Position numbers and translations under genes: made by a program
In this document: positions 45,655 to 46,602 of the stretch, piece after piece
Layout: the number at the start of each line of letters is the position of its first letter
Numbering within the stretch: position 1 is the stretch's first letter
DNA from: a phage
Reading direction: 5' to 3' (one strand)
Sequence record: PX880102.1
Length of the DNA: 64,000 nt
The notes under the pieces: model-generated
Told to the model about the DNA's origin: nothing
The model's input: only the letters and a program-made list of their open reading frames with translations
Databases searched by the model: none

Positions 45655-45730
45655 TGGTCGAGGCAGTAGGGATCGAACCTACGACCTAGGACTTAGAAGG
45701 TCCTTGCTCTTCCTTCTGAGCTATGCCCCG
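45655..45730 (-). tRNA. tRNA-Arg (anticodon TCT)
   Basis: Manual fold: 7-bp acceptor, T-loop GGTTCGATCC, anticodon loop CTTCTAA, CCA encoded. Confidence 0.8.
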
Positions 45731-45734
45731 TAAT

Positions 45735-45810
45735 TGGGGTGACCGATGGGAGTCGAACCCATGACTACGAGAATCACAATCTCGAGTTCTACCAACTGAA
45801 CTACGGCCAC
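45735..45810 (-). tRNA. tRNA-His (anticodon GTG)
   Basis: Manual fold: acceptor with one GU pair, anticodon loop TTGTGAT, discriminator C, CCA encoded. Confidence 0.75.
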
Positions 45811-45924
45811 ATTAATACCTACTCCAACAATCAAGATGTCTTCACACGAAATTAAGAGAAGAGTGATCAGTTCAACCCCTATAATCGCGTCAAGTAGATA
45901 TTATTGTGACAGTTGTCACAAATT

Positions 45925-45999
45925 TGGCGGACGTGATAGGATTCGAACCTATAACCAATCGCTTAACAGGCGATCGCTCTGCCATTGAGCTACACATCC
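45925..45999 (-). tRNA. tRNA-Asn (anticodon GTT)
   Basis: Manual fold: anticodon loop CTGTTAA, discriminator G, CCA encoded. Confidence 0.75.
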
Positions 46000-46003
46000 A
46001 AAT

Positions 46004-46090
46004 TGGTGGGGAGTGATGGAGTCGAACCACCCGAGTCGCAATGACAATGGATTTACAGTCCACACCGCTACCTCTACGGGATAACTCCCC
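46004..46090 (-). tRNA. tRNA-Tyr (anticodon GTA), long variable arm
   Basis: Manual fold: perfect 7-bp acceptor GGGGAGT/ACTCCCC, anticodon loop CTGTAAA, 87 nt. Confidence 0.75.
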
Positions 46091-46103
46091 TTAATTCTTA
46101 ATT

Positions 46104-46178
46104 TGGTGGCCCTGGGTGGAATTGAACCACCATCTGGCGATTATGAGTCGCTTGCTTGAACCTTCCAGCTACAGGGCC
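46104..46178 (-). tRNA. tRNA with CAT anticodon (Ile2-type by T4 synteny, or Met)
   Basis: Manual fold: acceptor GGCCCTG/CAGGGCC, anticodon loop CTCATAA. Confidence 0.75.
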
Positions 46179-46179
46179 T

Positions 46180-46255
46180 TGGTGCTGATTGACGGAATCG
46201 AACCGCCGACCTTCTCATTACAAGTGAGTTGCTCTACCTACTGAGCTAAATCAGC
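46180..46255 (-). tRNA. tRNA-Thr (anticodon TGT)
   Basis: Manual fold: acceptor GCTGATT/AATCAGC, anticodon loop CTTGTAA. Confidence 0.75.
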
Positions 46256-46260
46256 AAAAC

Positions 46261-46350
46261 TGGCGGAGGCGATAGGATTTGAACCTATGAGTCGCCGGAG
46301 CGACTGCCGGTTTTCAAGACCGGTGCATTAAACCACTCTGCCACGCCTCC
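46261..46350 (-). tRNA. tRNA-Ser (anticodon TGA), long variable arm
   Basis: Manual fold: acceptor GGAGGCG/CGCCTCC, anticodon loop CTTGAAA, discriminator G. Confidence 0.8.
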
Positions 46351-46352
46351 AG

Positions 46353-46426
46353 TCTCCATACAAGGATTTGAACCTTGGACCTCCTGATCCCAAATCAGGC
46401 GCTCTACCAAACTGAGCTACACGGAG
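46353..46426 (-). tRNA. tRNA-Pro (anticodon TGG), CCA not encoded
   Basis: Manual fold: acceptor with two GU pairs, anticodon loop TTTGGGA. Confidence 0.7.
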
Positions 46427-46436
46427 TAAATTAAAT

Positions 46437-46510
46437 TGGAGCGGATAATGAGAATCGAACTCACATCATCAGATTGGAAGTCTGAGGTAATACCATTATA
46501 CGATATCCGC
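46437..46510 (-). tRNA. tRNA-Gly (anticodon TCC)
   Basis: Manual fold: acceptor GCGGATA/TATCCGC, anticodon loop CTTCCAA. Confidence 0.8.
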
Positions 46511-46515
46511 AAATT

Positions 46516-46602
46516 TGGTGCGAGAAGTGGGACTCGAACCCACAAGGAAATCATTCCGCAGCATTTTAAGTGCTGTGCCTTTACCAATTTGACCATTCTC
46601 GC
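46516..46602 (-). tRNA. tRNA-Leu (anticodon TAA), long variable arm
   Basis: Manual fold: acceptor GCGAGAA/TTCTCGC, anticodon stem CAGCA/TGCTG, loop CTTAAAA. Confidence 0.8.

What the first reader, a model, noticed from the sequence alone, without database searches (positions are those of the whole stretch)
45655..46602. Expanded tRNA array: ten tRNAs including a Tyr/His/Asn (GUN-anticodon) block, and no tRNA-Gln
T4 as I recall encodes eight tRNAs (Gln, Leu, Gly, Pro, Ser, Thr, Ile, Arg). Here the order Leu-Gly-Pro-Ser-Thr-CAT-...-Arg is kept, but Tyr(GTA), Asn(GTT) and His(GTG) sit between the CAT tRNA and Arg, and Gln is absent. Tyr/His/Asn are the queuosine-family tRNAs cut by colicin-E5-type anticodon nucleases, and tRNA-Tyr is a reported target of retron-associated defence, so the extra tRNAs could be replacement parts that counter host tRNA-cleaving immunity.
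Basis: partly seen in the sequence, partly recalled or inferred. Interest (0 to 1): 0.6.

Follow-up and report, generated by a model that had tools for sequence, protein, structure and literature searches.

The report
Common T4-like ten-tRNA gene array
The ten tRNA genes are real, but this array is a common, already sequenced layout in T4-like coliphages; homing-endonuclease insertions explain its differences from T4, and published work already shows that T-even tRNA-Tyr counters host defence.

Summary
ARAGORN and Rfam call ten tRNAs on the minus strand at 45655-46602: Leu, Gly, Pro, Ser, Thr, CAU, Tyr, Asn, His, Arg. There is no tRNA-Gln.

The array is not novel. The window is a Tequatrovirus, 98.8% identical here to phage slur03, which has the same ten tRNAs annotated. 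Among about 500 public T4-type arrays, Tyr+Asn occur in about 396 records and His in about 195. T4's eight-tRNA set is therefore the reduced minority.

The differences from T4 are cassette swaps linked to homing endonucleases. T4 carries segB where this phage has Tyr, Asn and His. Here an HNH endonuclease gene sits inside tRNA-Gln, and stubs of that gene remain on both sides.

The "replacement parts" idea is partly right but already published. T6 and T2 tRNA-Tyr, 98-99% identical to this one, counter Septu. T5 tRNA-Asn and tRNA-Thr counter PARIS.

The colicin-E5/queuosine-block reading is not supported. Asp is missing, the three anticodon loops equal the host's, and the block is a composite of separate modules.

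One side finding may be new. The 114-nt "spacer" before tRNA-His is a conserved structured RNA found across Tevenvirinae genera. It resembles T5 stable RNA III in position and shape. The tRNA-His gene also lacks an encoded G-1.

The parts
46516..46602 (-). tRNA-Leu(UAA), first gene of the array
   Evidence: ARAGORN. Rfam tRNA 59.3 bits. Identical to T4 tRNA-Leu.
46437..46510 (-). tRNA-Gly(UCC)
   Evidence: ARAGORN. Rfam 65.8 bits. Identical to T4 tRNA-Gly.
46352..46426 (-). tRNA-Pro(UGG); CCA is not encoded, as in T4
   Evidence: ARAGORN. Rfam 66.8 bits. Sequence ends ...GGAGAC.
46261..46350 (-). tRNA-Ser(UGA)
   Evidence: ARAGORN. Rfam 62.6 bits.
46180..46255 (-). tRNA-Thr(UGU). Reads U36AAUG|A41 where E. 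coli thrU reads U36AAUC|A41 at the PARIS AriB cleavage site.
   Evidence: ARAGORN. Host comparison. AriB site from PMC12409363.
46104..46178 (-). tRNA with anticodon CAU, Ile2 type (AUA reader after lysidine modification); labelled Met by ARAGORN and in GenBank records
   Evidence: 77.3% identical to E. coli ileX against 61.3% to metT. Anticodon arm GCGACTCATAATCGC is identical to ileX, and C4-G69/C5-G68 are present. Only its first 20 nt match T4 tRNA-Ile.
46004..46090 (-). tRNA-Tyr(GUA), long variable arm
   Evidence: ARAGORN. Rfam 30.2 bits against a cut-off of 29. Identical to RB9, 98.9% to T2, 97.7% to T6, 79.3% to T5. The variable arm TTGTCATTGCGACTCG is identical in all of these.
45925..45999 (-). 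tRNA-Asn(GUU). Reads U36AAGC|G41 where E. coli asnT reads U36AAUC|C41.
   Evidence: ARAGORN. Rfam 74.1 bits. Identical to the T2, RB9 and R5505 genes. Host comparison. [quoted passage not shown]
45811..45924 (-). Structured leader RNA between tRNA-Asn and tRNA-His. It has a 5' hairpin at about 45902-45921 and a conserved core at 45811-45906. In the core a 14-bp terminal helix encloses two hairpins and ends at position -1 of tRNA-His.
   Evidence: MFE -32.9 kcal/mol, z = -3.37. A 96-214-nt spacer that ends in this core precedes tRNA-His in six other Tevenvirinae genera. On the ten-sequence alignment 94.1% of cells are paired, against 41-52% when partners are slid, with 10 pairs showing compensatory changes and 0/500 shuffles reaching the observed values. 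No Rfam family matches.
45735..45810 (-). tRNA-His(GUG) with C73 but T at -1, so no encoded G-1
   Evidence: ARAGORN. Rfam 65.1 bits. Differs by only one or two bases across Tequatrovirus, Jiaodavirus and Moonvirus. E. coli hisR encodes G-1.
45655..45730 (-). tRNA-Arg(UCU), the T2/RB-type allele
   Evidence: ARAGORN. Rfam 66.1 bits. 50.7% identical to T4 tRNA-Arg and near-identical to the T2, RB9 and R5505 genes.
46609..47217 (-). HNH homing-endonuclease gene (202 aa) inserted within the tRNA-Gln gene. Gln stubs remain at 47222-47230 (TGGGAATTA) and at 46604-46605 (AG).
   Evidence: PHROG 14736 HNH endonuclease, E = 6e-124. Pfam HNH 17.2 bits, below its cut-off. 34.7% identical to T5 hegA. Junctions compared with T4 and R5505. 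Present in 64 phage records.
45288..45638 (-). ORF of 116 aa of unknown function, lying inside the tRNA/stable-RNA transcription unit between tRNA-Arg and rnaD
   Evidence: PHROG 3355, unknown function, E = 1e-51. Present in T2, R5505 and slur03 at the same position; absent from T4 and RB9.
45029..45288 (-). Homologues of T4 stable RNAs rnaD (species 2, about 45174-45288) and rnaC (species 1, about 45029-45167)
   Evidence: 96.8% identical to T4 70825-71168, which carries the annotated rnaC and rnaD.
44955..44978 (-). Terminator-like hairpin plus T-run ending the tRNA/stable-RNA unit
   Evidence: Consensus scan: 10-bp stem with 7 GC pairs, followed by TTTTT.

Best explanation
This is the ordinary Tequatrovirus (T4-like) tRNA operon in one of its common allelic layouts. 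The unit has ten co-oriented tRNA genes, a structured leader RNA before tRNA-His, an ORF of unknown function and the rnaD/rnaC stable RNAs. It lies between trna.2 and e.8 and is presumably transcribed as a polycistronic precursor that host RNase P and 3' trimming enzymes cut up (inferred from T4 biology).

Its differences from T4 are the footprints of mobile endonuclease genes, not a designed tRNA set. In the T4 lineage the segB cassette (T4-type Ile + segB + T4-type Arg) replaces the segment that here carries the Ile2-type CAU tRNA, Tyr, Asn, the leader, His, Arg and ORF116. In this lineage an HNH homing-endonuclease gene landed inside tRNA-Gln and destroyed it.

Functionally, the tRNAs top up or replace host tRNAs during infection:
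- Seven read A-ending codons that the AT-rich phage uses more than its host does.
- Tyr and Asn serve amino acids the phage uses 1.4-1.6 times more than E. coli does.
- By direct analogy with published T6/T2 experiments, tRNA-Tyr also buffers the phage against PtuAB-type (Septu, retron-Eco7) cleavage of tRNA-Tyr.
- tRNA-Thr and tRNA-Asn carry substitutions at the PARIS AriB cleavage site and are predicted, not shown, to resist it.
- No specific role can be assigned to tRNA-His.
For: Shown here:
- The ten tRNAs are real.
- Synteny with T4, and three replacement or insertion blocks mapped by blastn.
- The same ten-tRNA layout is annotated in slur03 and is reported under near-full-length matches (96-99% identity) in ACG-C40, a51, L14, UTI-E4, KarlGJung and others.
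- An 11-tRNA relative, R5505, is 99.6% identical over the shared modules and still has Gln.
- Gln stubs flank the HNH gene.
- In a spread sample of 60 records, every row with the HNH gene lacks Gln.
- Record counts: Leu-Thr block 501, Tyr-Asn 396, leader+His at >=95% identity 195, HNH 64.
- tRNA-Tyr is 97.7-98.9% identical to the T6 and T2 genes, with the same variable arm.
- Codon and amino-acid demand: Tyr 1.59x, Asn 1.36x, AGA 4.6x, UCA 2.2x and so on.
- AriB-site substitutions in Asn (U39G, C41G) and Thr (C40G).

From papers:
- SegB cuts preferentially in T2L tRNA-Asn, and homing replaces about 1250 bp carrying Met(CAU), Tyr, Asn, Arg and ORFs (PMC2330249).
- Septu cleaves tRNA-Tyr. T6 tRNA-Tyr dosage rescues infection, T2 is resistant and T4 is sensitive (PMC13096335).
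- T5 tRNA-Tyr counters retron-Eco7 (PMC11555353).
- T5 tRNA-Lys, Thr and Asn counter PARIS (PMC12409363).
Against: No expression, processing or plating data exist for this phage.

T6 tRNA-Tyr is itself cleaved by Septu, and rescue there depends on dosage. One gene copy may therefore give only partial protection.

Codon demand does not explain the set. His is under-used (0.79x), while Lys (2.1x), Glu and Asp are over-used yet not encoded. The E. coli codon sample was small (33 ORFs).

Resistance of the Asn and Thr variants to AriB is inferred from position only. The phage also lacks tRNA-Lys, the main PARIS target.

The direction of the cassette replacements (which state is ancestral) is inferred from frequencies and from SegB homing experiments, not from a phylogeny.
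Confidence: 0.78

Rival explanations
1. One reading: Tyr, His and Asn form a dedicated GUN-anticodon (queuosine-family) cassette, selected as spare parts against colicin-E5-type anticodon nucleases that cut at Q34/U35.
For: All three tRNAs have GUN anticodons and lie next to one another. Colicin E5 targets queuosine tRNAs (stated in PMC12409363). The general hypothesis is published (PMC10264068). Related genera such as Jiaodavirus KP1 carry all four GUN tRNAs: Tyr, Asn, Asp and His.
Against: - tRNA-Asp is absent.
- The 7-nt anticodon loops of the phage Tyr (CUGUAAA), Asn (CUGUUAA) and His (UUGUGAU) tRNAs are identical to the host's. They keep the U33-G34-U35 context and show none of the loop substitutions used as the signature of nuclease evasion (PMC10264068).
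- The 'block' is a composite. Tyr+Asn occur without His in T2 and RB9, Tyr occurs alone in T6, and leader+His sits next to Gln in other genera.
- Colicin E5 is a bacteriocin. No phage-triggered nuclease with this specificity appeared in the papers read.
Confidence: 0.08
2. Pure codon and amino-acid compensation: the tRNAs exist only to match the AT-rich phage's translational demand to an unsuitable host tRNA pool, with no role in immunity.
For: Cognate A-ending codons are 1.4-4.6 times more frequent in the window's ORFs than in the E. coli sample (TTA 1.67, GGA 1.72, CCA 1.44, TCA 2.20, ACA 1.47, ATA 1.64, AGA 4.60). Tyr is 1.59x and Asn 1.36x as amino acids. This is the classical explanation for the T4 tRNAs (established knowledge).
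Against: His is used less than in the host (0.79x) yet is encoded and highly conserved. Lys (2.1x), Glu (1.44x) and Asp (1.38x) are the most over-used amino acids besides Tyr and are not encoded. Published experiments show a defence phenotype for T6/T2 tRNA-Tyr.
Confidence: 0.3
3. Neutral hitch-hiking: which tRNAs a given T-even phage carries is set mainly by selfish homing-endonuclease traffic (segB, HNH) that drags flanking DNA along. The Tyr/Asn/His genes are dispensable passengers.
For: - SegB homing converts the T2L region to the T4 version with about 94-100% efficiency (PMC2330249).
- The HNH gene destroyed tRNA-Gln without evident cost in 64 sequenced phages.
- Many mosaic layouts exist.
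- The tRNA region is non-essential in the laboratory (PMC2330249).
Against: The tRNA sequences are under strong constraint. tRNA-His differs by only one or two bases across three genera whose leaders have diverged, and Tyr and Asn are identical or nearly so across T2, RB9, R5505 and the window. There is also an experimental fitness effect of tRNA-Tyr under Septu.
Confidence: 0.25

Closest known systems
Ten-tRNA arrays of Tequatrovirus phages slur03/slur08/slur14, vB_EcoM_ACG-C40 and relatives
   Same: Same ten tRNAs with the same anticodons and order. Same HNH gene in place of Gln and same ORF116. 97-98.8% nucleotide identity over 2 kb.
   Different: Nothing of substance. The window is another member of this group.
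T4 tRNA gene cluster (Gln-Leu-Gly-Pro-Ser-Thr-Ile-segB-Arg-rnaD-rnaC)
   Same: Same genomic position between trna.2 and e.8. Leu to Thr are 98% identical. rnaD and rnaC are 96.8% identical.
   Different: T4 has Gln and the GIY-YIG homing endonuclease segB. It lacks Tyr, Asn, the leader, His and ORF116. Its Ile and Arg genes are different alleles, 62.7% and 50.7% identical.
T2L/RB1/RB3-type tRNA regions (Brok-Volchanskaya et al. 2008, PMC2330249)
   Same: No segB. The CAU tRNA, Tyr, Asn and the T2-type Arg are identical or nearly identical to the window's genes.
   Different: T2 and RB9 keep Gln and lack the leader+His module. T2 has an ORF in place of Thr.
Phage tRNA-Tyr as counter-defence: T6/T2 against Septu PtuAB (PMC13096335) and T5 against retron-Eco7 (PMC11555353)
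   Same: The tRNA-Tyr gene is 97.7-98.9% identical to the tested T6 and T2 genes. The variable arm, which is the cleavage region, is identical, and is also identical to a T5-like phage's.
   Different: There is no segB next to tRNA-Tyr here, so the SegB-driven amplification route described for T6 is not available in cis. No experiment has been done on this phage.
T5 tRNA-Lys/Thr/Asn variants that neutralise PARIS AriB (PMC12409363)
   Same: The window's Thr(UGU) and Asn(GUU) carry substitutions at positions 39-41, next to the 40|41 cleavage site, as the T5 variants do.
   Different: There is no tRNA-Lys(UUU), the main target. The sequences are only about 60% identical to the T5 genes. Resistance is untested.
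T5 stable RNA III directly upstream of T5 tRNA-His (annotation of NC_005859)
   Same: An RNA of about 100 nt lies immediately 5' of tRNA-His. Its 5' and 3' ends form a 12-14-bp helix enclosing internal hairpins. The tRNA-His gene has T at -1.
   Different: No detectable sequence or covariance-model similarity: model R1 gives no hit in the T5 locus at E < 10. T5 has an extra internal hairpin. The function of T5 RNA III is itself unknown.

Membership tests
Tequatrovirus (T4-type) tRNA operon | Cluster of co-oriented tRNA genes between trna.2-4/ipI/57B and e.8-e.1/e | tested here: met
   ORFs and blastn show gp1, 57A, 57B, ipI and trna.2 upstream and e.8 downstream.
Tequatrovirus (T4-type) tRNA operon | Conserved Leu-Gly-Pro-Ser-Thr core | tested here: met
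   98% identical to T4 over 447 bp. 501 phage records cover >=80% of it.
Tequatrovirus (T4-type) tRNA operon | Stable RNAs rnaD/rnaC and a terminator at the distal end | tested here: met
   96.8% identity to the T4 rnaC/rnaD segment. Terminator-like hairpin at 44955-44978.
Phage tRNA-Tyr counter-defence against PtuAB nucleases (Septu / retron-Eco7) | Phage-encoded tRNA-Tyr(GUA) closely related to an experimentally protective one | tested here: met
   98.9% identical to T2 and 97.7% to T6, with an identical variable arm. Phenotypes are in PMC13096335.
Phage tRNA-Tyr counter-defence against PtuAB nucleases (Septu / retron-Eco7) | Rescue of infection in cells carrying the defence system; sufficient expression level | not testable with these tools
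   Needs plating and northern or tRNA-seq experiments.
PARIS (AriB)-evading phage tRNA set | Variant tRNA-Lys(UUU) | tested here: not met
   No tRNA-Lys in the window or in the whole slur03 genome.
PARIS (AriB)-evading phage tRNA set | Thr(UGU) and Asn(GUU) with substitutions around the U36AAUC|N41 site | tested here: met
   Asn reads UAAGC|G against the host's UAAUC|C. Thr reads UAAUG|A against the host's UAAUC|A. The site definition comes from PMC12409363. Resistance itself is untested.
Counter-measure to colicin-E5-type (queuosine-family) anticodon nucleases | Covers the full target set (Tyr, His, Asn, Asp) | tested here: not met
   tRNA-Asp is absent.
Counter-measure to colicin-E5-type (queuosine-family) anticodon nucleases | Anticodon-loop differences from host tRNAs that would block recognition or Q modification | tested here: not met
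   The loops of Tyr, Asn and His are identical to E. coli tyrU, asnT and hisR.
Counter-measure to colicin-E5-type (queuosine-family) anticodon nucleases | The three genes behave as one inherited unit | tested here: not met
   Tyr+Asn occur without His (RB9, T2). Tyr occurs alone (T6). Leader+His sits beside Gln in other genera.
Codon-compensating phage tRNAs | Cognate codons or amino acids are used more by the phage than by the host | tested here: inconclusive
   True for Leu, Gly, Pro, Ser, Thr, Ile2, Arg, Tyr and Asn. False for His (0.79x). The most over-used amino acid, Lys, is not encoded. The host sample was small.
tRNA-Ile2 (lysidine-dependent AUA reader) | CAU anticodon with an ileX-like anticodon arm and C4-G69/C5-G68 | tested here: met
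   Anticodon arm identical to E. coli ileX. 77.3% identical to ileX against 61.3% to metT. The TilS determinants are taken from established knowledge.
Canonical bacterial tRNA-His | Genome-encoded G-1 opposite C73 | tested here: not met
   T at -1 and C73 present. E. coli hisR has G-1. T is also at -1 in T5, Aeh1 and mycobacteriophage Catera.
Free-standing homing endonuclease gene | Nuclease family signature | tested here: met
   PHROG 14736 HNH endonuclease, E = 6e-124. Pfam HNH is below its cut-off at 17.2 against 21.4 bits. 34.7% identical to T5 hegA.
Free-standing homing endonuclease gene | Presence/absence polymorphism at a precise site in otherwise near-identical genomes | tested here: met
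   The gene is inserted after nt 9 of tRNA-Gln. R5505, T4 and RB9 have intact Gln at the same site. 64 records carry the gene.
Free-standing homing endonuclease gene | Cleaves the endonuclease-free allele and is preferentially inherited | not testable with these tools
   Needs cleavage assays and phage crosses.
T5 RNA III-like stable RNA | Position directly 5' of tRNA-His, about 100 nt, terminal helix closing internal hairpins | tested here: met
T5 RNA III-like stable RNA | Detectable homology to T5 RNA III | tested here: not met
   Covariance model R1, built from ten Tevenvirinae leaders, gives no hit in the T5 tRNA region at E < 10.
T5 RNA III-like stable RNA | Accumulates as a discrete stable RNA in infected cells | not testable with these tools
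   Needs northern blots or RNA-seq.

The most novel reading that the evidence does not exclude
The module made of the structured ~100-nt leader and a G-1-less tRNA-His may be a conserved, unannotated phage device and not just a spacer plus an ordinary tRNA.

The leader's terminal helix abuts position -1 of tRNA-His in seven Tevenvirinae genera, and T5 stable RNA III mirrors its position and shape. The leader would be released as a stable RNA with its own function, for example directing processing of the His precursor or acting as a decoy or regulator.

The tRNA-His lacks the G-1 that E. coli HisRS normally requires. It would then be charged by an unusual route, or it would serve as an uncharged target decoy for tRNA-directed nucleases.
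Probability: 0.25. Interest if true: 0.55.

Novelty: already known. Interest (0 to 1): 0.22.

Why it matters
For the finding as stated, the value is mainly corrective.
- T4, the textbook reference, has an atypically small tRNA set because of a selfish segB cassette. Differences from T4 should therefore not be read as 'expansions'.
- The missing tRNA-Gln is collateral damage from another selfish gene, not a meaningful absence.
- The anti-defence idea is sound but already demonstrated for T-even tRNA-Tyr (Septu) and for T5 tRNAs (retron-Eco7, PARIS).

What remains open, and can now be tested, is why a well-conserved tRNA-His is carried at all. It serves an amino acid the phage under-uses, it lacks G-1, and in every T4-like enterobacterial phage examined and in T5 it follows a conserved structured RNA. 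That module occurs in several hundred sequenced phages and was unannotated in every Tevenvirinae record examined; only T5 annotates its counterpart, RNA III.

Tried and rejected
- An exact-pattern scan of IMG/VR with a 36-mer from tRNA-Pro returned only one contig, too few for a census. I used BLAST counts on the INPHARED phage collection instead, including a chimeric module query sampled evenly down the ranking.
- The spacer as a promoter: the sigma-70 scan gives no minus-strand hit inside 45811-45924, and overall promoter-like hits are only mildly above shuffles (16 against 10.9 +/- 3.1). No T4 middle or late promoter motif was seen by eye. Rejected.
- The spacer's palindrome TGTGAcaactgTCACA matches the CRP core consensus. 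It is restricted to Tequatrovirus copies and forms the 5' hairpin of the RNA, so it is most likely coincidental. Not pursued.
- The spacer as a degenerate tRNA or a copy of rnaC/rnaD: there is no Rfam hit at E < 1, no blastn similarity to T4 rnaC or rnaD, and the folds differ. Rejected.
- Homology of the leader to T5 RNA III: covariance model R1 found only the Tequatrovirus copies, plus one marginal hit (E about 0.1) inside a T2 structural-gene region that I take as chance. Homology is not shown.
- Structure-aware alignment (mafft-qinsi) was unavailable. The interior of the leader alignment is therefore rough, and only the terminal helix and hairpin B are well supported.
- T at -1 as a special mark of tRNA-His: the -1 bases of the other nine tRNAs are mixed (4 T, 4 A, 1 C), so T itself is unremarkable. 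The point is only the absence of G.
- Literature searches for T5 RNA III and for a phage tRNA-His without G-1 found nothing relevant in the held library.
- ApeA and bacterial Schlafen papers were checked for Tyr/Asn/His specificity. ApeA variants cut Pro/Thr/Met/Ser, or Gln/Tyr/Val/Gly. Schlafen cuts Lys, Met and others. Neither is a GUN-specific system.
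Full report
**1. Observation**

ARAGORN run on the whole window returns exactly ten tRNA genes, all on the minus strand between 45655 and 46602. In transcription order they are Leu(UAA), Gly(UCC), Pro(UGG), Ser(UGA), Thr(UGU), a CAU-anticodon tRNA, Tyr(GUA), Asn(GUU), His(GUG) and Arg(UCU). All ten reach the Rfam tRNA gathering score. Nine score 59-74 bits; tRNA-Tyr, which has a long variable arm, scores 30.2 against a cut-off of 29. There is no tRNA-Gln.

**2. What the window is, and how it compares with T4**

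The region is 98.8% identical over 2 kb to Escherichia phages slur03, slur08 and slur14. It is 96-97% identical to vB_EcoM_ACG-C40, a51, L14, UTI-E4, KarlGJung and others, all of the genus Tequatrovirus. In slur03 the same ten tRNAs with the same anticodons are annotated as gt001-gt010, the only tRNAs of that genome.

The T4 record shows this layout: trna.2 > Gln Leu Gly Pro Ser Thr Ile > segB > Arg > rnaD > rnaC > e.8. A blastn comparison of the window with T4 gives the following map.

| Window segment | Relation to T4 |
|---|---|
| 46159-46605 (Leu to Thr, plus the first 20 nt of the CAU tRNA) | 98% identical |
| 44946-45288 (rnaD, rnaC) | 96.8% identical |
| 46606-47221 | replaces T4 tRNA-Gln |
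| 45289-46158 (ORF116, Arg, His, a 114-nt element, Asn, Tyr, most of the CAU tRNA) | replaces T4's Arg + segB + most of Ile |
| 44422-44945 (an ORF of 157 aa) | an insertion |

The CAU and Arg genes are therefore different alleles from T4's, 62.7% and 50.7% identical.

The CAU tRNA is an Ile2-type AUA reader. Its anticodon arm is identical to E. coli ileX and it has C4-G69/C5-G68. It is 77.3% identical to ileX against 61.3% to metT. The 'Met' label from ARAGORN and in GenBank records reflects only the anticodon.

**3. Why Gln is missing**

The ORF at 46609-47217 is an HNH endonuclease. It matches PHROG 14736 at E = 6e-124. Its Pfam HNH score is below the cut-off. It is 34.7% identical to T5 hegA, which also sits in a tRNA region.

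At the junctions, the first 9 nt of tRNA-Gln (TGGGAATTA, 47222-47230) and its last two bases (AG, 46604-46605), followed by the single linker base C (46603) before tRNA-Leu, are still present. T4 and R5505 have the intact gene at exactly this place. The endonuclease gene was therefore inserted into tRNA-Gln.

In an evenly spaced sample of 60 matching records, every record with this HNH gene lacks Gln. Sixty-four phage records carry the gene. The absence of Gln is collateral damage from a selfish element.

**4. How common the 'extra' tRNAs are**

Individual layouts were read from annotated records.

| Phage | tRNA layout |
|---|---|
| R5505 | Gln + the window's ten (11 tRNAs) |
| RB9 | Gln...CAU Tyr Asn Arg rnaD rnaC (no His) |
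| T2 | the same, with an ORF in place of Thr |
| T6 | Gln Leu Gly Thr CAU Tyr segB Arg |

I also ran a chimeric query made of the T4 Gln-specific part, the Leu-Thr block, the His-leader-Asn-Tyr segment, T4 segB and the window's HNH gene. Rows were sampled evenly down the ranking. About 34 of the 60 sampled rows are Tequatrovirus:

- 8-9 rows have Gln plus Tyr/Asn/His.
- 8 rows have Gln plus Tyr/Asn without His.
- 5 rows are T4-type with segB.
- 2 rows are the window type (one of them with part of the Thr gene replaced).
- The rest are mixed types.

Direct counts in the 50,697-record phage collection agree.

| Module | Records |
|---|---|
| Leu-Thr block, >=80% covered | 501 |
| Tyr-Asn pair, >=80% covered | 396 |
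| Leader+His at >=95% identity | 195 |
| Leader+His across all genera, >=80% covered | 338 |
| Whole window-type region, >=80% covered | 38 |

T4's eight-tRNA state is thus a minority.

Brok-Volchanskaya et al. (PMC2330249) had already sequenced the T2L, RB1 and RB3 regions with Met(CAU), Tyr, Asn and Arg. They showed that SegB cuts preferentially inside T2L tRNA-Asn. They also showed that homing replaces about 1250 bp of the T2L region by the T4 version. That mechanism accounts for T4's smaller set.

**5. Function**

*Demand.* I compared 82 ORFs of the window with 33 E. coli K-12 ORFs. The codons read by the classical T4-type tRNAs are 1.4-4.6 times more frequent in the phage. Tyr (1.59x) and Asn (1.36x) are over-used amino acids. 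His is under-used (0.79x). Lys, the most over-used at 2.1x, has no phage tRNA. Demand therefore explains part of the set but not His.

*Defence.*
- Chihara et al. 2026 (PMC13096335) show that Septu PtuAB cleaves the variable arm of tRNA-Tyr. Expression or SegB-driven amplification of T6 tRNA-Tyr restores infection. Deleting the T6 tRNA region sensitises the phage. T2 is resistant, and T4, which lacks tRNA-Tyr, is sensitive.
- Azam et al. 2024 (PMC11555353) show the same principle for T5 tRNA-Tyr against retron-Eco7.
- The window's tRNA-Tyr is identical to RB9's, 98.9% identical to T2's and 97.7% to T6's. Its variable arm is identical to all of these and to a T5-like phage's. These results can reasonably be transferred to this phage.
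- For PARIS, AriB cuts E. coli tRNA-Lys(UUU), Thr(UGU) and, more weakly, Asn(GUU) between positions 40 and 41 of the motif U36AAUC|N. T5 variants with substitutions there rescue infection (PMC12409363). The window's Asn reads UAAGC|G and its Thr reads UAAUG|A. They are plausibly resistant, but the phage has no tRNA-Lys.

*The E5/queuosine idea.* Asp is absent. The anticodon loops of the phage Tyr, Asn and His tRNAs are identical to the host's, unlike the loop substitutions that van den Berg et al. use as the signature of nuclease evasion (PMC10264068). The three genes are also not one inherited unit (section 4). I found no phage-defence nuclease with GUN specificity in the papers read. I rate this reading as unlikely.

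**6. The 'spacer' between Asn and His**

The 114 nt at 45811-45924 fold well as RNA on the tRNA strand, with MFE -32.9 kcal/mol and z = -3.37. The fold has a 5' hairpin and then a long helix formed by the two ends of the remaining 95 nt. That helix encloses two hairpins and ends at position -1 of tRNA-His.

A spacer of 96-105 nt with the same design precedes tRNA-His in four other genera. There tRNA-Gln lies upstream:
- Jiaodavirus (KP1, Mineola, PKO111)
- Moonvirus (Merlin)
- Winklervirus (Kc304)
- Kagamiyamavirus (EcS1)

In Karamvirus (VPA32) and Gelderlandvirus (Melville) the spacer is about 213 nt and ends in the same element.

On a ten-sequence alignment the 14-bp terminal helix is 98.6% paired, with compensatory UA<->CG and AU<->UA changes. 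Hairpin B covaries at all four pairs. Overall 94.1% of cells are paired, against 41-52% when partners are slid by 1-3 columns. None of 500 column shuffles reaches the observed values. Several pairs are U-G on this strand, which would be C-A mismatches on the other. The structure is therefore read at the RNA level on the tRNA strand. Rfam has no family for it.

In phage T5 the annotated 'RNA III' is a 106-nt stable RNA of unknown function. It lies directly 5' of T5 tRNA-His and folds into the same kind of terminal-helix structure. A covariance model built from the T4-like leaders does not detect it. I call this an analogy and not a demonstrated homology.

**7. tRNA-His without G-1**

The tRNA-His gene has C73 but T at -1, where E. 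coli hisR encodes G-1. The same is true in all T4-like copies examined, in T5, in Aeromonas phage Aeh1 and in mycobacteriophage Catera.

By established knowledge, G-1:C73 is the main HisRS identity element and is normally gene-encoded in bacteria. How this well-conserved tRNA is charged, or whether it is charged at all, is unexplained.

**8. Verdict**

- The array is an already sequenced, widely distributed layout of the T4-like tRNA operon.
- Its differences from T4 are explained by homing-endonuclease cassettes.
- The anti-defence interpretation is right in spirit and already published for tRNA-Tyr. Its specific queuosine/colicin-E5 form is not supported.
- The only possibly new element is the leader-tRNA-His module.

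Noticed in passing
window 45811-45924 (- strand); also L007 2077-2172, L008 1577-1681, L011 325-538, L012 327-539, L015-L017: The 'spacer' before tRNA-His is a conserved structured RNA. A 14-bp terminal helix with compensatory changes encloses two hairpins. It is present before tRNA-His in seven Tevenvirinae genera (338 records with >=80% coverage of leader+His). It is unannotated in the records examined and absent from Rfam. It resembles T5 stable RNA III in position and architecture, but a covariance model does not link them.
   Followed up: yes
window 45810/45811 (position -1 of tRNA-His); L022 8284; L023 377; L024 375: Phage tRNA-His genes have C73 but T instead of G at -1. This holds in the window, all T4-like copies examined, T5, Aeh1 and mycobacteriophage Catera. 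E. coli hisR encodes G-1. This leaves open how, or whether, HisRS charges these tRNAs.
   Followed up: partly
window 46609-47230 (- strand): An HNH homing-endonuclease gene is inserted inside tRNA-Gln, and 9-nt and 2-nt stubs of the tRNA remain. The protein is 34.7% identical to T5 hegA, which also lies in the T5 tRNA region. In T5, hegD likewise overlaps a tRNA-Gln pseudogene.
   Followed up: yes
window 46104-46178 (- strand): The CAU-anticodon tRNA, labelled 'Met' by ARAGORN and in many GenBank records, is an ileX-like Ile2 tRNA (AUA reader). It is a different allele from T4 tRNA-Ile (62.7% identical). The recombination breakpoint with the T4-like sequence lies 20 nt into the gene.
   Followed up: yes
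window 45288-45638 and 44427-44900 (- strand): Two ORFs of unknown function sit within or next to the tRNA/stable-RNA unit: 116 aa (PHROG 3355) and 157 aa (PHROG 2280). Both are absent from T4. The first lies between tRNA-Arg and rnaD, so it would be transcribed with the tRNAs.
   Followed up: partly
window 45903-45918 (within the 5' hairpin of the leader): The palindrome TGTGAcaactgTCACA matches the core of the CRP-binding consensus. It is found only in Tequatrovirus copies of the leader and is probably coincidental, since it forms an RNA hairpin.
   Followed up: no
L018 (phage teqskov) 1492-1698: In teqskov the leader element is present without tRNA-His, directly upstream of tRNA-Arg, and is preceded by what looks like a Thr/Asn hybrid tRNA remnant. 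This is a further mosaic state of the array.
   Followed up: no
L011 325-538 and L012 327-539 (Karamvirus VPA32, Gelderlandvirus Melville): These genera have a second structured element of about 115 nt upstream of the His leader, between Gln and the leader. Its ends pair as AGAGUG...CACUCU. This recalls T5, where RNA I and RNA III lie in tandem before tRNA-His.
   Followed up: no
rows H93 and H94: The window's tRNA-Tyr matches records named Campylobacter phage A13b (95.7%) and Klebsiella phage KaOmega (92.5%). It also matches rV5/FV3-like coliphages at 93.6%. tRNA-Tyr of this type is shared well beyond T4-like phages, or some records may be mislabelled.
   Followed up: no
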